Positions 2,120-23,760 of a stretch of DNA of 64,000 nucleotides are shown here, piece after piece (within the stretch, counting starts at the first letter, position 1; each line of letters opens with the position of its first letter). The stretch is from NCBI RefSeq assembly GCF_003018115.1, contig NZ_CP027457.1, one strand, 5' to 3'. Under the pieces are notes generated by a model, which was given only the letters and a program-made list of their open reading frames with translations, was not told the DNA's origin and did not search any database. Both the position numbers and the translations under genes were made by a program. The stretch comes from Escherichia coli. Lineage in GTDB: Bacteria; Pseudomonadota; Gammaproteobacteria; Enterobacterales; Enterobacteriaceae.

Positions 2120-2379
2120 TTAAACATTTATAAGCGTTATAAATGGGTGGAACCTGTAAAGACTTCTACTCATTTATATTGTTTGTCGCCTCTGAAAACT
2201 CCTCCATTTTCCCCATCCAGGGCTAATCATTAGCATTCTCTACAAATTCTGCGGCATTAATTTTTCGCTGGAGTGAAAATTATTGCGGCAAAGTTTGGTA
2301 GATTTTAGTTTGTATAGAGTTATTTTAAATATTTACCTTTTTAATCAATGGATTAAGCGCTCTTTAACATAATGGATGT

Positions 2380-2458
2380 GTTGTTTGTGTGATACTGTAA
2401 AGTTGGTAGATTGTGACTGGCTTAAAAAATCATTAATTAATAATAGGTTATGTTTAGA
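2380..2458 (+). promoter_or_regulatory. CRISPR leader (AT-rich) immediately upstream of repeat 1
   Basis: AT-rich ...tggtagattgtgactggcttaaaaaatcattaattaataataggttatgtttaga directly abutting the first repeat; resembles the E. coli I-E leader from memory. Confidence 0.6.
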
Positions 2459-3219
2459 GAGTTCCCCGCGCCAGCGGGGATAAACCGAAAATTGGGACGC
2501 TAACTCATGGGTCTGGGTAGAGTTCCCCGCGCCAGCGGGGATAAACCGGGAAAAACGCCTGTGGTTGGGGCTGAACCAGGGAGTTCCCCGCGCCAGCGGG
2601 GATAAACCGTCGGCGCGCTCTCTGTAGAGCGGTTGTGTGATGAGTTCCCCGCGCCAGCGGGGATAAACCGTCGTCGGGTCCGACAGGGGTCGGTTGTTCG
2701 CCGAGTTCCCCGCGCCAGCGGGGATAAACCGGCTTAATAAACGAGGAGAATACCGATGTTTTTAAGTTCCCCGCGCCAGCGGGGATAAACCGTTCTTTTA
2801 ATGGCGTCAGGCCCATTACAGAGCGAGTTCCCCGCGCCAGCGGGGATAAACCGTTTTGACGATTATTCTAAAAGTGAAAATAGCAGAGTTCCCCGCGCCA
2901 GCGGGGATAAACCGCACGCTGGAGTGACCGGGTGGCAGAGCATGACGAGTTCCCCGCGCCAGCGGGGATAAACCGCCATTTCATCATGAACGGCGGAAAT
3001 ATCGTGGGAGTTCCCCGCGCCAGCGGGGATAAACCGGTCAGTTCCCGGTTGATATATATGATGAGCATGAGTTCCCCGCGCCAGCGGGGATAAACCGCGC
3101 AATGGCGCGGCGATTGCTCTCGAGATCAAGTGTTCCCCGCGCCAGCGGGGATAAACCGGGTACAAAAGAGGCCCCATTCTGGCAGGGCTCGAGTTCCCCG
3201 CGCCAGTGGGGATAAACCA
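2459..3219 (+). CRISPR. Type I-E CRISPR array, 13 repeats and 12 spacers (queE-ygcE side)
   Basis: 29-bp repeat GAGTTCCCCGCGCCAGCGGGGATAAACCG at 2459, 2520, 2581, 2642, 2703, 2764, 2825, 2886, 2947, 3008, 3069, 3130, 3191 with exact 61-bp period and 32-bp unique spacers. Repeat 6 starts AAG, repeat 12 starts GTG, terminal repeat 13 is degenerate (..CCAGTGGGGATAAACCA). Confidence 0.97.
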
Positions 3220-3308
3220 CCATATAACCCGTTATCTCTTTCTCAAGTTTTTATATTAGCTGTACTTGTAATAAGCAACATATCCACGTAACACCTCATG
3301 TTCATAAT

Positions 3309-3332
3309 AGTTCCCCATGCCAGATAAGTTCA
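3309..3332 (+). repeat. Decayed CRISPR repeat remnant
   Basis: agttccccatgccagataag resembles the repeat with an internal deletion, about two repeat-spacer units beyond the terminal repeat. Confidence 0.3.
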
Positions 3333-3687
3333 CAATTATCGATACAAAAAATTAAAGTTAATCAAAGTGTTATTTGTATAATTCTTAAGCCGTTAAGAAA
3401 TTTTAATCTATTATTTTTTTAATATTAATTAATGCCTGTTAATTTTTTCTTTAGTATAACAGTGTGTTTTTTAAGCTTGTTATTCATTGATTAAGTAATA
3501 AATCTGGAAATTTGTCTTTGTTTTGAGGCTAATGAGTGGTTTTACATAACCGCCTCTATACGCTGTTGATGAATAGTTCTTATGAATAAAGATATCCAGT
3601 TCATACTTTAAGTGAAAATTGATAAAGTGCGATTCGTATTGTCTTTTATTCTAAAGACATCGAGTGTAGTTAATATTCCTTGTAAAA

Positions 3688-3810
3688 ACAGGGATAAACC
3701 GAACTAGTTGAAGTTTTTATTATGTTCCCTGCATCAGCGGGGATAAACCGGACTTGTTATCATTTTTTAAGTTGTCGAACTTATGTTCCCCGCGTCAGCG
3801 GGGATAACCA
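3688..3810 (+). CRISPR. Degenerate satellite CRISPR array (3 repeat copies, 2 spacers), preceded by an AT-rich leader-like stretch
   Basis: Partial repeat ..acagggataaaccg (3688-3701), 20-bp spacer, repeat ATGTTCCCTGCATCAGCGGGGATAAACCG (3722-3750), 32-bp spacer, repeat ATGTTCCCCGCGTCAGCGGGGATAACC (3783-3810). Confidence 0.8.
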
Positions 3811-3856
3811 TTCAGGTATGTTCAGGCCGGGCAGTTTCCCGCCCGGTCTTCCTCAC

Positions 3857-18916: not shown

Positions 18917-19651
18917 ATGTCCAAACTCGATCTAAACGCCCTGAACGAACTGCCGAAGGTAGATCGCATTCTGGCGCTGGCGGAAACTAACGCCCAACTG
19001 GAAAAACTGGACGCTGAAGGCCGCGTAGCCTGGGCGCTGGATAATCTGCCCGGTGAATATGTGCTTTCTTCCAGCTTCGGCATTCAGGCGGCGGTGAGCC
19101 TGCATCTGGTGAATCAGATTCGCCCGGATATTCCAGTGATCCTCACCGATACCGGTTACTTGTTCCCGGAAACCTACCGCTTTATTGACGAGTTAACGGA
19201 CAAACTCAAGCTCAACCTGAAAGTGTACCGTGCTACCGAAAGCGCAGCCTGGCAGGAAGCACGCTACGGAAAACTGTGGGAGCAGGGCGTTGAAGGCATT
19301 GAAAAGTACAATGACATCAACAAAGTCGAACCGATGAACCGGGCGCTGAAAGAACTTAACGCGCAAACGTGGTTTGCTGGCCTGCGCCGCGAACAATCCG
19401 GCAGCCGCGCCAATTTACCGGTGCTGGCAATTCAGCGTGGCGTATTTAAAATGCTGCCGATTATCGACTGGGATAACCGAACGATATATCAGTATCTGCA
19501 AAAGCATGGCCTGAAATATCACCCATTATGGGACGAAGGATATTTATCGGTGGGCGATACCCATACAACCCGTAAATGGGAACCCGGCATGGCGGAAGAA
19601 GAAACGCGTTTCTTTGGCTTAAAAAGGGAATGTGGGTTACACGAAGGGTAA
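18917..19651 (+). CDS. cysH: Phosphoadenosine phosphosulfate (PAPS) reductase
   Basis: 244 aa from ATG 18917 (SD gagg; [12 protein letters not shown]...); ORF track start 18764 runs through the REP and is rejected. Confidence 0.93.
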
Positions 19652-19817
19652 ATATTGCCGGATAAATTAAACGCCTCTGTCAGAAATGATGGGGGCGTTT
19701 TTATTTTGCGAGCAGCATTCCTGATTTTAAACGTGAACGCCGCTGGAAGAATTATCAGGTATAGAATGGCGTCGGGTGCTTGAGGCTGTCTGGCGTTAAG
19801 CATTCGCGAGGTTCCAG

Positions 19818-19922
19818 ATGGACAAAAGCCCCAGGCGATATTTCTATCAACCTGAGGCTTACGTTCGAACCCAAACAATTCGAATGTTAGTCTCTTCTTT
19901 GCAGGGAGGCAAGACATGCTGA
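19818..19922 (+). CDS. mok-like upstream ORF (34 aa), translationally coupled to hok
   Basis: ATG 19818 with SD gagg 7 nt upstream; stop TGA overlaps the hok start (ATGCTGA). Confidence 0.35.
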
Positions 19923-20068
19923 CAAAATATGCCCTTGTGGCAATCATCGTACTGTGTTGTACAGTACTGGGATTCACGCTGATGGTAGGTGACTCGTTGT
20001 GTGAGTTGAGTATCAGAGAACGTGGTATGGAGTTTAAGGCAGTTCTCGCTTACGAATCGAAGAAGTAG
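19916..20068 (+). CDS. Hok/Gef-family type I toxin (50 aa membrane peptide)
   Basis: [50 protein letters not shown]; hydrophobic N-terminal helix plus the SLCE(I/L).(I/Y)R...EV.A..AYES.K signature of Hok proteins; SD ggagg 6 nt upstream; below the 60-aa cutoff of the ORF track. Confidence 0.8.
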
Positions 20069-20261
20069 CCACCACGCGGGGGTAAAACCCCGCGTACTGA
20101 ATTGTGATGGTTTGGTCTCCTGCACCCTTTTTTAAAATTTATATTTTTTATGTGAATATATAGTCTCTATTTATTATTATGAATTTCAAATGAAAATCAT
20201 TAATTTATTCATAATGTAAATGTTTTATTGGCTGATATATATCACAGATAATTTTTAAAAT

Positions 20262-22358
20262 ATGCGTAAATATCCTTTAAGTTTACTGAAGGATAAAAAT
20301 ATTGTGACTTTTTTTGATTTCTGGGGAAAAACCCGACGCGGCGAGAAAGACGGGGGCGACGACTATCACCTTCTTTGCTGGCATTCGCTGGATGTAGCCG
20401 CGATGGGCTATTTAATGGTTAAAAGAAATTGCTTCGGGCTGGCTGATTATTTTCGTCAATTAGGGATTTCTGACAAGGAACAGGCGGCTCAATTTTTCGC
20501 CTGGTTGCTGTGCTGGCACGATATTGGAAAATTTGCCCGCTCTTTTCAACAACTTTACCTGCCCCCTGAACTCAAGATTCAGGAAAGTGCCAGAAAAAAT
20601 TACGAAAAAATCTCTCATTCAACGCTGGGCTACTGGTTGTGGAATCATTATTTAAGTGAATGTCAGGAGTTACTTCCTTCATCTTCGCTCTCTCCGCGCA
20701 AACTTAGGCGAGTGATAGAAATGTGGATGCCCGTGACGACAGGGCATCATGGTCGGCCCCCTGATCGTATGGATGAATTGGATAATTTTCTGCCTGAAGA
20801 CAAAGCTGCAGCACGAGATTTTCTCCTTGAAATCAAACCACTGTTTCCGCTCATAGAGATCCCCGCATTCTGGGATGATGATGAGGGCATTGAACTTATA
20901 AAACACCTTTCCTGGTATATCTCTGCAACCGTCGTGCTCGCAGACTGGACGGGTTCGTCAACGCGATTTTTTCCACGCGTCGCACACCCAATGGATATTA
21001 AAGGTTACTGGCAGAAAACTTTAATTCAGGCTCAAAACGCCTTAACCGTCTTTCCTCTAAAAGCAAAAGTCGCGCCTTTCAACGGAATTAATACGCTGTT
21101 TCCTTTTATTGAGAATCCGACACCGTTACAGCAAAAGGTGCTGGATCTGGATATCAGCCAGCAAGGACCGCAGTTATTTATTCTGGAAGATGTGACTGGC
21201 GCAGGTAAAACAGAAGCGGCGCTTATCCTGGCGCACAGGTTGATAGCTGCGGGGAAAGCTCAGGGGCTGTTTTTTGGTCTGCCAACAATGGCAACGGCCA
21301 ATGCCATGTACGATCGGCTGGTCAAAACCTGGCTTGCTTTCTATTCGCCAGAATCCCGCCCCAGCCTGGTGCTGGCACATAGTGCCCGCACATTAATGGA
21401 CCGCTTTAATGAATCACTCTGGTCTGGTGATTTAGTCGGGTCAGAAGAACCGGATGAACAAACGTTCAGTCAGGGATGTGCGGCCTGGTTTGCCGACAGT
21501 AACAAGAAGGCGTTGCTGGCTGAAATTGGCGTCGGCACGCTGGATCAGGCGATAATGGCGGTGATGCCGTTCAAACATAATAATCTGCGGCTTCTGGGGC
21601 TGAGTAACAAAATCCTGCTGGCTGATGAGATCCACGCCTGTGACGCTTACATGTCGTGCATTCTTGAAGGGTTGATCGAGCGGCAGGCGCGTGGCGGAAA
21701 CAGCGTTATTTTGCTTTCTGCCACGTTATCTCAACAGCAGCGCGACAAACTCGTCGCTGCCTTTGCGCGGGGTACAGAGGGCCAGCAAGAAGCTCCGTTC
21801 CTGGAAAAGGATGATTACCCCTGGCTGACGCATGTCACGAAATCCGATGTGAACTCACACCGGGTAGCGACGCGCAAAGACGTTGAGCGTAGCGTCAGCG
21901 TGGGTTGGCTTCATAGTGAACAAGAGTGTATTGCGCGTATCGAATCGGCGGTAAGTCAGGGGAAATGCATCGCCTGGATCCGGAATTCTGTCGATGACGC
22001 TATTAAGGTTCATCGTCAGCTGCTTGCCCGCGGCGTCATTCCTGCTTCCAGCCTTTCACTTTTTCATAGCCGCTTTGCTTTTAGCGATCGCCAGCGAATT
22101 GAAACGGAAACGCTGGCACGCTTTGGTAAATATTGTAGTTTACAGAGAGCGTCGCAAGTCATTGTTTGTACACAAGTAATTGAGCAAAGCGTGGATATTG
22201 ACCTGGACGAAATGATCTCCGACCTGGCCCCTGTTGATTTGCTGATTCAGCGAGCAGGACGATTACAGCGGCATATCCGCGATATTAATGGTCAGTTAAA
22301 GCGTGACGTGTTCCCCGCGCCAGCGGGGATAAACCGGGTACACGGATATTCTGTCTAA
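20262..22358 (+). pseudogene. cas3: cas3 (type I-E HD nuclease / DExH helicase), 3'-truncated and fused to CRISPR repeat 1
   Basis: HD-domain motifs (CWHSLDVAA, HDIGKF), Walker A DVTGAGKTEAA, DEAH-type LADEIH; reading frame runs into the first repeat at 22308 (residues VFPAPAGINR encoded by repeat) and stops in spacer 1; about 680 aa of Cas3 sequence against about 890 expected. Confidence 0.85.
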
Positions 22359-22702
22359 AAGTTAACTAGTGTTCCCCGCGCCAGCGGGGATAAACCGACT
22401 GATAACGCCGGAGCCTTCTTTTTCAGCAAGTGTTCCCCGCGCCAGCGGGGATAAACCGAGGTTGACGTTGATTTTGTTCGTTATGTTGCCGTGTTCCCCG
22501 CGCCAGCGGGGATAAACCGACCTCGACAATGACACGGGCGCGAAAACAATCGTGTTCCCCGCGCCAGCGGGGATAAACCGTCGGTGGCTGGATTGAAAAA
22601 GAAGATAATCTGGTGTTCCCCGCGTCAGCGGGGATAAACCGGGCGCACTGGATGCGATGATGGATATCACTTAGAATTCCCCGCCCCTGCGGTAGAACTC
22701 CC
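22308..22702 (+). CRISPR. Type I-E CRISPR array, 6 intact repeats plus 1 degenerate terminal repeat, 6 spacers; no leader
   Basis: Repeat GTGTTCCCCGCGCCAGCGGGGATAAACCG at 22308, 22369, 22430, 22491, 22552, 22613 (61-bp period, 32-bp spacers); repeat 6 carries cgcgTcag; degenerate copy gaattccccgcccctgcggtagaactc at 22674-22702. Confidence 0.95.
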
Positions 22703-22722: not shown

Positions 22723-23760
22723 TCAAGACGCCTTCGCCAGCTCCTTCACCAGCGGTAGCATTATCCGCATAACATCACGGCAGCGACGTTCTATTCTTCC
22801 AGGAAGTGCCTTATCAATATGTTGTTGATTATCCAGTCTTACGTCATGCCAGCTATTTCCCGCCGGGAAGGCAGGTGTTTTTGCGCGTTGCTGATAACCA
22901 TCCTTATTCCCAAGATTCCAGTTAGTCGCTTCCACCGAAAGTACAGCAATGCCCGCTTTGTCGAATATTTCTGCGTCATTACAACACCCAGTGCCTTTCG
23001 GATAATTTTTATTCAAACCCGGATTGGTCGTTGCGGCTATTCCGTGACTGCGCGCAATTGCCAGCGCCCTGTCGCGCGTTAATTTCCTTACTGCTTCAGG
23101 GGTTTTTACACCGCTGTTGAAATACAATTTATCGCCAACAATTAAGTTATCGAGATTAATCACCAGCAGCGTATTTTTCTTTTCGGTGTCACTCATCCGC
23201 TTGAGTAAATTCTCAGCGCCTAATTTCCCTTCCTCTTCGCCGCTGGTCGCCACAAATCGAATACCATACTCGGTAGGCGTATTTTTCAGGCGTTCTGCCA
23301 ATTCCAGCATGACACCTAAACCTGCGGCGTTATCATCCATTCCTTGTAACGTCAGCCCGCCGAGATTGGCATCGGCGTCAGCATCGCTCAGCGGGGCGTA
23401 AGTATCCAGATGCGCCATAATGATGATCTGCTGCGGCGCTTTGCCTTCATGAGCGGCAATCACCGTACTTCCTGTCACGTTATGCCAGTTCTTGCGATTA
23501 TCGCGGGCGGTATAAATATACCGACTATTAAATGTCCGAATATCACTGCGATAACCCATTTGCTGAAACTGTTGGCGAATATAATCGGCAGATAACATTT
23601 CTGCAGGAGTTCCGGTCATGCGTCCCGGAAAGAAAGTAGCAATATGTCGTGCCTGAGTATTAGCAAAATCGCCAGGTTTAGGTGACGAGGCGTGTACGGG
23701 GAGAATAAAGCATACGCCGAGCGCCAGGGCAGCGGTACGGTGGCGCAATGCGGAAAACAT
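22723..23760 (-). CDS. iap: Alkaline phosphatase isozyme conversion aminopeptidase
   Basis: 345 aa with N-terminal signal peptide; synteny next to CRISPR and cysD. Confidence 0.88.
   Translation of the reverse strand: MFSALRHRTAALALGVCFILPVHASSPKPGDFANTQARHIATFFPGRMTGTPAEMLSADYIRQQFQQMGYRSDIRTFNSRYIYTARDNRKNWHNVTGSTVIAAHEGKAPQQIIIMAHLDTYAPLSDADADANLGGLTLQGMDDNAAGLGVMLELAERLKNTPTEYGIRFVATSGEEEGKLGAENLLKRMSDTEKKNTLLVINLDNLIVGDKLYFNSGVKTPEAVRKLTRDRALAIARSHGIAATTNPGLNKNYPKGTGCCNDAEIFDKAGIAVLSVEATNWNLGNKDGYQQRAKTPAFPAGNSWHDVRLDNQQHIDKALPGRIERRCRDVMRIMLPLVKELAKAS

What the first reader, a model, noticed from the sequence alone, without database searches (positions are those of the whole stretch)
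20262..22702. Cas-less type I-E locus: 3'-truncated cas3 reads straight into CRISPR repeat 1; Cascade, cas1, cas2 and the leader are gone
The only cas ORF has clear HD-nuclease and DExH-helicase motifs, but its frame continues into the first repeat of the iap-side array at 22308 (the last residues are encoded by the repeat) and stops in spacer 1. About 680 aa of Cas3 sequence remain against roughly 890 for intact I-E Cas3. No cse1, cse2, cas7, cas5, cas6e, cas1 or cas2 exists between cysH and iap, although both flanking genes are in place, and no leader precedes this array. This is therefore a deletion scar that orphans both arrays; I see no IS element or transposase at the junction.
Basis: partly seen in the sequence, partly recalled or inferred. 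Interest (0 to 1): 0.7.

Follow-up and report, generated by a model that had tools for sequence, protein, structure and literature searches.

The report
Truncated cas3 fused to CRISPR repeat

Summary
ORF 20262-22358 encodes residues 1-682 of the 899-aa E1 (O157-type) Cas3, then reads through repeat 1 (22308) and stops in spacer 1.

Compared with an intact locus, 654 nt of cas3, cse1, cse2, cas7, cas5, cas6e, cas1, cas2 and the leader are missing. That is about 6.6 kb, and no IS element sits at the junction. No other Cas protein is encoded anywhere in the 64-kb window.

The junction is not an assembly error. Eleven complete genomes carry it, including ETEC O169:H41. Their arrays are ordered subsets of one ancestral array, which indicates a single origin followed only by spacer loss.

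The new point concerns where the deletion ends. Twelve independent cas3::array fusions (eight in E. coli, two in Salmonella, two in another genus) start at twelve different cas3 positions. All of them end exactly at G1 of the repeat, which is the leader-side Cas1-Cas2 integration site. Only 1 of 12 has the acquisition PAM 33 nt upstream. The K-12-type (E2) variant shows no such event.

My best reading is that the integrase joined a cas3 coding-strand 3'-OH to the first repeat and so deleted its own operon. This is inferred, not shown.

The locus itself is an ordinary decayed system. The recurrent base-exact junction class appears to be undescribed.

The parts
19774..19931 (+). sok antisense RNA region of the hok/sok module that marks E1-type CRISPR-I loci (context, left of cas3)
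   Evidence: Rfam RF01794, 113 bits. Almendros 2014 (PMC3903273) reports hok/sok in all arrangements except the E2 variant.
19916..20068 (+). hok toxin ORF (50 codons)
   Evidence: Read from the sequence. The same 153-nt gene is annotated as Hok/Gef in related loci.
20262..22307 (+). cas3 remnant: codons 1-682 of the 899-codon E1 cas3, with the HD nuclease and helicase core kept and the C-terminal ~217 residues lost
   Evidence: tblastn 99.7% identity over residues 1-682. NCBIfam HD domain 38-233 and cas3_core 306-676. PGAP annotates it as a pseudogene missing its C-terminus in the identical loci.
22307..22308 (+). deletion junction: cas3 nt 2046 (..AAGCGTGAC) joined to G1 of a CRISPR repeat, with a 1-nt G ambiguity
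   Evidence: Alignment to intact locus L003.
22308..22358 (+). chimeric ORF tail encoded by repeat 1 and the start of spacer 1 (VFPAPAGINRVHGYSV, then stop)
22308..22702 (+). leaderless CRISPR2.1 array: six 29-nt repeats, six spacers and a degenerate terminal repeat (~22674-22702)
   Evidence: The E1 leader is absent.
22723..23760 (-). iap, the normal right-hand neighbour of the array
   Evidence: annotation of identical loci
2300..3219 (+). second I-E array (CRISPR2.3 type, GAGTT repeats at 2459-3219) with its own leader retained (~2300-2458); also orphaned
3722..3811 (+). two degenerate repeats (CRISPR2.2 remnant)

Best explanation
Shown: this is a decayed E1-variant type I-E CRISPR-Cas locus. 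One 6.6-kb deletion removed the last 654 nt of cas3, then cse1, cse2, cas7, cas5, cas6e, cas1, cas2 and the leader. It fused cas3 codon 682 to the first nucleotide of a CRISPR repeat. The event happened once in an ancestor. Descendants have only lost spacers since, through repeat-repeat recombination, which fits the absence of Cas1-Cas2. The locus cannot acquire spacers, process crRNA or interfere, so both arrays are orphans.

Inferred: the deletion was probably made by the Cas1-Cas2 integrase. The right end is exactly the phosphodiester between leader and repeat G1. That is where the first, PAM-independent, leader-side transesterification of spacer integration joins a DNA 3'-OH to the 5' end of the repeat. 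If the 3'-OH came from a nick or end in the cas3 coding (top) strand, and not from a 33-nt prespacer, the top strand would then read cas3-G1 and skip the operon. The next round of replication would fix this as a deletion in one daughter chromosome. On this reading the adaptation enzyme deleted its own genes.

The confidence value refers to the integrase mechanism. The deletion-scar and orphan-array part is near certain (about 0.97).
For: Deletion anatomy.

Single origin with spacer loss only: the arrays of 7 fetched window-type loci are ordered subsets of [28,1,2,31-36,29,30,3,4,5,6], and 11 genomes carry the junction.

Recurrence and exactness: eight independent E. coli fusions at cas3 nt 1470, 1486, 1555, 1569, 1671, 2046, 2168 and 2459, plus four in Salmonella and another genus. 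All join directly to GTGTTCCCCGCG. Twelve of 13 array-joined fusions lie at the repeat 5' boundary, P = 2.5e-15 under uniform placement.

No PAM: the triplet 33-35 nt upstream is AWG in 1 of 12. Natural and experimental E1 acquisitions show 78-82% AWG (PMC3737337), giving P of about 5e-7 to 6e-8.

Microhomology at the junctions is 0-1 nt. No IS element is involved.

Variant specificity: the E1 probe (cas3 5' end plus iap flank) found 70 genomes with the cas3 5' part within about 2 kb of iap, of which the G1-type fusions are a subset. The same E2 (K-12) probe found one, and that one is IS-mediated.
Against: No experiment links Cas1-Cas2 to these junctions. Integration of a long chromosomal 3' end has not, to my knowledge, been reported, and my literature search was limited.

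The model does not by itself explain why the left ends of E. coli G1-type fusions all lie in cas3 (nt 1470-2459) and none in about 3.8 kb of surveyed cse1-cas5.

Those same cas3 zones are also endpoints of other deletion classes that do not involve the array. So the left end may simply reflect fragile sites.

One array fusion (EC596) joins inside the repeat 3' end and not at G1.

A check of the queE-side leader found only repeat-repeat collapse and no G1-type leader loss. Only one locus was inspected.
Confidence: 0.45

Rival explanations
1. Self-derived spacer followed by recombination. Cas1-Cas2 first acquired a normal 32-nt spacer from cas3 in direct orientation. Recombination between that spacer and its protospacer about 6.6 kb upstream then deleted everything between them, possibly under selection from autoimmunity. 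This would leave cas3 running up to the PAM-distal end of the protospacer and then into the next repeat.
For: It predicts exactly the observed geometry: cas3 contiguous up to G1, leader lost, direct orientation. Loss of I-F cas genes in E. coli has been attributed to cas-targeting spacers (PMC8616872 and PMC5972030). E1 Cas1-Cas2 is reported to sample DNA carrying its own genes preferentially (PMC3737337 outline). GF131 (ATG) and 2020CK-00188 (GAG) do have usable PAMs at -35..-33.
Against: Only 1 of 12 junctions has the E1 acquisition motif AWG at the predicted position, against 78-82% expected. No flipped-orientation PAM appears either (sequences). No cas3-derived spacer turned up among 99 spacers from the fetched loci. 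The genome-wide search for matches to cas3 nt 1420-2499 found nothing in any genome lacking cas3. Recombination on 32 bp across 6.6 kb should be far rarer than simple loss of the spacer between adjacent repeats. The model also gives no reason for cas3 to be the only donor gene.
Confidence: 0.2
2. Break at the integration site followed by end joining. Ordinary spacer integration nicks the leader-repeat junction. A replication fork converts the nick into a double-strand end that begins at G1. Microhomology-independent joining then links this end to a second break in a fragile zone of cas3. Cas1-Cas2 supplies only the nick, not the joining.
For: This would explain the fixed right end and the 0-1 nt of microhomology. 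The cas3 zones at nt 1458-1605, 2013-2046 and 2168-2184 are recurrent endpoints of other deletions too, and they lie near inverted repeats. From my own knowledge (Levy et al. 2015, not checked here), integration-dependent breaks at the array have been proposed.
Against: A free end in E. coli is resected by RecBCD, yet 12 of 12 G1-type junctions retain G1 to the base. Three correctly oriented Chi sites lie between the array and cas3. The top-strand 5' end at G1 in an integration intermediate would carry the new spacer, and no such insert is seen.
Confidence: 0.2
3. Generic illegitimate recombination. The coincidence with the repeat boundary is chance or a hairpin effect, and the integrase plays no role.
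For: Many other deletions in E1 cas operons are microhomology events, for example cas3::cas7e with TG, the TA class, an 11-nt repeat in P0096 and EC596 inside the repeat.
Against: Twelve of 13 array-joined events fall at one position of a 61-nt unit, P = 2.5e-15. G1 lies 5 nt outside the repeat's palindromic stem. There is no shared microhomology with the leader end.
Confidence: 0.04
4. Assembly or scaffolding artefact that collapsed an intact cas operon.
For: None found.
Against: The identical junction is present in 11 independently finished genomes, and PGAP annotates it as a cas3 pseudogene. The cse1, cas7 and cas5 probes find nothing elsewhere in F9792.
Confidence: 0.01

Closest known systems
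Cas-E-less or partly deleted CRISPR-I (iap-cysH) arrangements of E. coli and Shigella (Almendros et al. 2014, mBio, PMC3903273; Diez-Villasenor et al. 2010)
   Same: Same chromosomal locus and the same E1 (O157-type) module with hok/sok. Arrangements with partial cas genes, and loss of the leader together with the cas genes, are described there.
   Different: That work attributes most minor arrangements to IS elements and recombination between IS copies. Here there is no IS. In the text I could read, it does not mention base-exact joining of cas3 to the first nucleotide of a repeat, or its recurrence.
Orphan CRISPR4 (I-F) arrays of E. coli with anti-cas spacers (Almendros et al. 2016, as summarised in PMC5972030 and PMC8616872)
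   Same: Arrays that outlive their cas genes, and the idea that the CRISPR machinery itself caused the loss of cas genes.
   Different: There the arrays carry spacers that match cas genes and keep their leaders. Here no spacer matches the deleted genes beyond a 17-nt partial hit, the leader is gone, and the predicted PAM is absent.
Leader-side half-site integration intermediate of E. coli Cas1-Cas2 with IHF (Nunez 2016 and Wright 2017 as cited in bioRxiv 10.1101/608976)
   Same: The same phosphodiester (leader | G1, top strand), the same polarity (incoming 3'-OH joined to the repeat 5' end) and PAM independence of this first step.
   Different: The known substrate is a ~33-nt prespacer, and the reaction is completed at the spacer side. 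Here the inferred substrate is the chromosome's own cas3 strand, no second step occurred, and the outcome is a deletion.
Self-targeting-driven genome deletions by type I systems (e.g. Vercoe et al. 2013, cited in PMC8616872)
   Same: CRISPR-Cas activity leading to loss of chromosomal DNA and of immunity.
   Different: Those deletions remove the target and have heterogeneous endpoints. Here the endpoint is fixed at the integration site, and no targeting spacer is evident.

Membership tests
[quoted passage not shown] | Full-length Cas3 (HD, helicase and C-terminal domain) | tested here: not met
   Only residues 1-682 of 899 are present. The C-terminal ~217 aa are absent in all frames.
[quoted passage not shown] | Cascade genes cse1, cse2, cas7, cas5 and cas6e | tested here: not met
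   tblastn with E1 and E2 proteins finds none in the 64-kb window. None is found elsewhere in the identical-junction strain F9792 for cse1, cas7 or cas5.
[quoted passage not shown] | Adaptation genes cas1 and cas2 | tested here: not met
   No match in the window.
[quoted passage not shown] | Leader with promoter and IHF site upstream of the cas-adjacent array | tested here: not met
   The E1 leader (L003 18114-18209) is absent. cas3 abuts repeat 1 directly.
[quoted passage not shown] | 29-nt I-E repeats with ~32-nt spacers | tested here: met
   Six repeats at 61-nt spacing.
E1 (O157:H7-type) variant of E. coli I-E | E1 cas3 allele, hok/sok next to cas3, GTGTT-type repeats in CRISPR2.1 | tested here: met
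   99.7% identity to E1 Cas3 against 31% to K-12 Cas3. sok found by Rfam. Repeats start GTGTT. The criteria come from PMC3903273 and PMC3737337.
Orphan CRISPR array | Array present with no cognate cas genes available | tested here: inconclusive
   Met for the window and for the I-E genes of strain F9792. The rest of this genome, including the I-F locus at clpA-infA, could not be examined.
IS-mediated cas deletion (Almendros 2014 arrangements D-G) | IS element or IS remnant at the deletion junction | tested here: not met
   No transposase ORF or IS sequence lies between hok and iap in the window. The junction is cas3 | G1 with nothing inserted.
Product of Cas1-Cas2 leader-side transesterification | Junction at the leader | repeat-G1 phosphodiester, with a 3' end joined to the repeat 5' end | tested here: met
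   Base-exact in this locus and in 11 other independent events.
Product of Cas1-Cas2 leader-side transesterification | Dependence on Cas1 catalysis and IHF | not testable with these tools
   Needs genetics or biochemistry.
Spacer/protospacer recombination after self-acquisition | Acquisition PAM (AWG for E1) at -35..-33 from the junction | tested here: not met
   The window has ATA. Across the 12 events, 1 of 12 is AWG.

The most novel reading that the evidence does not exclude
The CRISPR integrase Cas1-Cas2 can capture a 3'-OH in the coding strand of cas3, about 4.5-7 kb upstream in cis, and join it to the leader-proximal repeat. This excises its own operon in one step. On this reading, that reaction is a recurrent route by which E1-type I-E systems of Escherichia, Salmonella and relatives are lost in nature. 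The window carries one fixed product of it.
Probability: 0.4. Interest if true: 0.8.

Novelty: new variant of a known kind. Interest (0 to 1): 0.55.

Why it matters
For this genome the conclusion is practical. The strain (an ETEC O169:H41-like lineage) has no I-E immunity. Its arrays are frozen and can only shrink, so they work as lineage markers and not as a record of recent phage exposure.

The wider point is how CRISPR-Cas systems are lost. Loss is usually put down to IS elements, random deletion or autoimmunity. A junction class that always ends at the integrase's own cleavage site, lacks the PAM, recurs in three genera and is confined to one system variant would be a natural footprint of off-pathway integrase chemistry on the host chromosome. 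That gives a directly testable mechanism for the patchy distribution of CRISPR-Cas. It also bears on the use of Cas1-Cas2 as a molecular recorder.

Tried and rejected
1. Recombination at repeat-like sequence in cas3. Intact cas3 has GTTCCCCCCC 14 nt past the breakpoint, but the junction is not in register with it. Rejected.

2. Canonical or flipped self-spacer. PAMs at -35..-33 and C|WT at the break were checked for all junctions. Not supported.

3. Surviving anti-cas spacers. Ninety-nine spacers from all fetched loci were compared with the intact operon. The only hit is a 17-nt partial match to cse2. No genome carries a spacer matching cas2 nt 62-131. For cas3 nt 1420-2499 no match was seen in any genome lacking cas3; 17 genomes that do carry cas3 have a second, uninspected match.

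4. A synthetic repeat-protospacer-repeat query for a spacer at the nt-2037 hot spot returned 'No match'. This was probably the low-complexity filter, so the test is uninformative.

5. Chi-directed ends. Chi sites lie at cas3 nt 2531 and in cse1 and cas5/6e, all in the top strand, but the left ends are not at Chi.

6. Selection for in-frame fusion. The G1 junctions use all three frames.

7. K-12-type control. It showed no equivalent events.

8. cse1/cse2 and cas7/cas5 anchored surveys. They found no G1-type fusions.

9. queE-side leader control. It found only repeat-repeat collapse.

10. Literature searches for a prior description of cas3::repeat junctions found none in the held library. Two further look-ups failed on syntax.
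Full report
**Observation.** The window carries cysJ-cysI-cysH, a hok/sok module, one cas ORF, a CRISPR array, iap (minus strand) and cysDNC. This is the E. coli CRISPR-I locus in the orientation opposite to K-12.

- ORF 20262-22358 is 698 codons.
- The array has 29-nt repeats GTGTTCCCCGCGCCAGCGGGGATAAACCG at 22308, 22369, 22430, 22491, 22552 and 22613, then a degenerate terminal repeat at about 22674-22702.

**What is missing.** An intact locus with a 100%-identical cas3 tail (strain 720632, locus L003) has cas3 of 2700 nt (899 aa), then cse1, cse2, cas7e, cas5e, cas6e, cas1e, cas2e, a 96-nt leader and the array.

- Window homology to L003 runs to L003 11601 and resumes in the array.
- At base level the intact gene reads ..AAGCGTGAC|GGAAAGG. 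The window reads ..AAGCGTGAC|GTGTTCCCCGCG. The leader-repeat junction reads ..GCTTAGT|GTGTTCCCCGCG.
- So 654 nt of cas3, seven genes and the leader (about 6.6 kb) are gone. The rejoining point is the first base of a repeat, with one ambiguous G.
- tblastn with all E1 and all K-12 Cas proteins finds only Cas3 residues 1-682 in the whole window. No Cas3 C-terminus appears in another frame, and there is no E1 leader.
- The remnant keeps the HD domain (38-233) and the helicase core (306-676).
- There is no transposase between hok and iap.

**Not an artefact, and not private to this genome.** The junction is 100% identical in ETEC O169:H41 strains F9792, F8111-1SC3, F6326-C1 and 2014EL-1345-2, and in LR882990. 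It is also present in OkiPb01716, JNE23-001, 13E0767, WEC, YZLc4-1 and O8:H8 16F5M1D1. NCBI's PGAP pipeline annotates it as a cas3 pseudogene missing its C-terminus.

The spacer orders of the window and the six fetched window-type genomes are all ordered subsets of one array, [28,1,2,31-36,29,30,3,4,5,6], with one duplication. That is the expected pattern for a single ancestral event followed only by spacer loss, with no integrase left to add spacers. In F9792 the cse1, cas7 and cas5 probes hit nothing else on the chromosome.

**A recurrent, base-exact junction class.** I built a synthetic query from cas3 nt 1-1500 plus 1.5 kb of the iap side. It ranks first those genomes where the two parts lie close together. 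Seventy of 5,426 complete genomes qualify.

Inspection of representatives showed eight different cas3 breakpoints in E. coli: nt 1470, 1486, 1555, 1569, 1671, 2046 (the window type), 2168 and 2459. In every case the cas3 sequence is followed directly by GTGTTCCCCGCG.

Chimeric proteins in the large protein collection revealed four more. Their C-termini are repeat-encoded (VFPAPAGINR, xVPRASGDKP or xCSPRQRG*). I confirmed them at DNA level: two in Salmonella (cysH-sopD-cas3 context) and two in another enterobacterial genus.

One further array fusion (EC596, from cse1) joins inside the 3' end of a repeat and is the only exception. Twelve of 13 at the repeat 5' boundary has P = 2.5e-15 if endpoints were uniform in the 61-nt unit.

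The same search design with K-12-type (E2) cas3 found a single genome, and that case is IS-mediated. So the phenomenon belongs to E1-like systems (P about 0.008).

**Which mechanism fits.** The leader | G1 phosphodiester on the transcribed-sense strand is where Cas1-Cas2 with IHF performs the first integration step. That step joins the non-PAM 3' end of a prespacer to the 5' end of the first repeat (bioRxiv 10.1101/608976). Two routes could leave cas3 abutting G1.

- *Route A.* A spacer is acquired from cas3 and then recombines with its protospacer. This predicts the E1 acquisition motif AWG (CWT on the other strand; 37/45 experimental and 43/55 natural spacers, PMC3737337) at -35..-33 from each junction. 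The observed triplets are ATA, ATG, GAG, CGT, GCT, GCG, CCA, GAA, CTT, GGT, GCG and CGA. That is 1 of 12, the chance level, and P is about 5e-7 to 6e-8 against canonical acquisition. No cas3-matching spacer was found in fetched arrays. The genome-wide search found none in any genome lacking cas3, although 17 cas3-bearing genomes had a second, uninspected match.
- *Route B.* The integrase joins a chromosomal 3'-OH in the cas3 coding strand directly to G1, as a half-site reaction with a very long 'prespacer'. The top strand then skips the operon, and replication segregates a deletion daughter. This accounts for the exact G1, the absence of a PAM, the 0-1 nt of microhomology, loss of the leader and the strand polarity.

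I favour route B, but it is an inference. A variant in which the integrase only nicks and host end-joining does the rest is harder to square with perfect retention of G1 in 12 of 12 cases, given RecBCD and three correctly oriented Chi sites in between.

**What remains unexplained.**

- In E. coli, G1-type left ends lie only in cas3 nt 1470-2459. Surveys anchored in cse1/cse2 and in cas7/cas5 found none (P about 1e-4).
- The same cas3 zones are endpoints for other deletion classes.
- cas3 nt 2037 (CAGTTA|AAG) is joined to at least seven different partners: cse1 nt 420, 906 and 1173, cas1 nt 222 and 411, and cas2 nt 62 and 70. In another deletion it serves as the right end.
- cas3 nt 1605 (GGGTA|GCG) is used four times.
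- cas2 nt 70 (GGCTA|CTGG) receives four different left partners.
- All these sites have TA just 5' of the break. The window's own breakpoint is 9 nt beyond the nt-2037 hot spot.
- Several zones flank inverted repeats.

These look like fragile or pause sites that could supply the 3' ends. I could not establish their cause.

**Function now.** With no Cas6e, Cascade, Cas1-Cas2 or full Cas3, the locus cannot make crRNA, interfere or adapt. Read-through from the cas3 promoter region may transcribe the leaderless array; a weak promoter-like site lies at 20232-20261, which is not evidence of function. The queE-side array (2459-3219) keeps its leader but has no partner proteins.

**Comparison with the literature.** Almendros et al. 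2014 catalogued CRISPR-I arrangements, the E1/E2 variants and partial cas genes. They mostly invoked IS elements. Cas-targeting spacers have been proposed to explain I-F cas loss. I found no description of base-exact cas3::repeat fusions or of their recurrence. The held library is incomplete, however, and the 2010 Diez-Villasenor and 2011 Touchon papers were not read.

**Verdict.** The locus is a known kind of thing: a decayed E1 I-E system with orphan arrays. The junction class it belongs to appears to be new and is mechanistically suggestive.

Noticed in passing
L003 11591 (cas3 nt 2037; window 22298/22299), 9 nt left of the window junction: cas3 nt 2037 (CAGTTA|AAG) is a nucleotide-exact deletion hot spot. 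It is the left end of fusions to cse1 nt 420, 906 and 1173, cas1 nt 222 and 411, and cas2 nt 62 and 70. In an internal cas3 deletion it is the right end. An AAG PAM sits immediately after the break.
   Followed up: partly
L003 17888/17889 (cas2 nt 69/70): Four independent deletions with different left partners (cas3 nt 2037, cas3 nt 1557, cse2 nt 105, cse1 nt 420) all rejoin at cas2 ..GGCTA|CTGGAAGTG. A fifth rejoins 8 nt upstream at ..CGCTA|TCTGG. All partner sites end in TA. No spacer matching the adjacent cas2 sequence exists in 5,426 genomes. The cause is unknown.
   Followed up: partly
L028 2846 (AR434): A cas3 nt 1765::cas7e nt 174 deletion with TG microhomology appears in about 5 of 60 evenly spaced rows of the ranking. 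That suggests a few hundred of the 5,426 genomes carry it, which would make it much the commonest E1 cas lesion.
   Followed up: partly
window 22459-22490 (spacer 3): Spacer 3 (AGGTTGACGTTGATTTTGTTCGTTATGTTGCC) has a 17-nt exact match to the 3' end of cse2 on the opposite strand (L003 14428-14444). About 0.004 such matches are expected over the whole comparison. The flanks do not match (19/32 overall).
   Followed up: partly
Non-IS deletions bringing the cas3 5' part next to iap occur in 70 genomes with the E1 variant. None occurs with the K-12-type E2 variant; its single case carries ISEc52.
   Followed up: yes
L025 2062-2107 (EC596): A cse1::array fusion that is not at G1. cse1 sequence is followed by ACCTA, then ATAAACCG (the last 8 nt of a repeat, i.e. 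the crRNA 5' handle), then a spacer. The join therefore lies at or near the position that corresponds to the Cas6e cleavage site in the transcript.
   Followed up: no
P0001, P0003-P0006, P0011-P0014, P0107/8: In-frame chimeric ORFs (Cas3-Cse1, Cas3-Cas1, Cas3-Cas6e, Cas3-Cas7) exist in public E. coli assemblies and are named after the second domain by some sources. They are products of internal cas-operon deletions.
   Followed up: partly
L003 12085, 13377, 16117: Three Chi sites (GCTGGTGG) lie between cas3 and the array, all on the cas coding strand and none on the other strand. All G1-type left ends lie to the left of the leftmost one (cas3 nt 2531).
   Followed up: partly
L001 1-1801 (F9792) vs window 19600-20260: Strain F9792 shares the junction at 100% identity, but it has IS186B and ISVsa5 transposase genes and a truncated hok upstream of cas3. 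The window has an intact hok/sok and no IS, so the window is not from F9792 itself.
   Followed up: no
L033 2227-2255 (GF3-3), corresponding to window 2459-3811: In strain GF3-3 (99% identical flanks) the whole queE-side array has collapsed to one hybrid repeat by repeat-repeat recombination, with the leader intact.
   Followed up: yes
L005 3051-3384 (JNE23-001): A window-type array with a tandem duplication of one spacer (order 29,30,30,4,5,6). This shows that repeat-mediated duplication, as well as loss, continues without cas genes.
   Followed up: no
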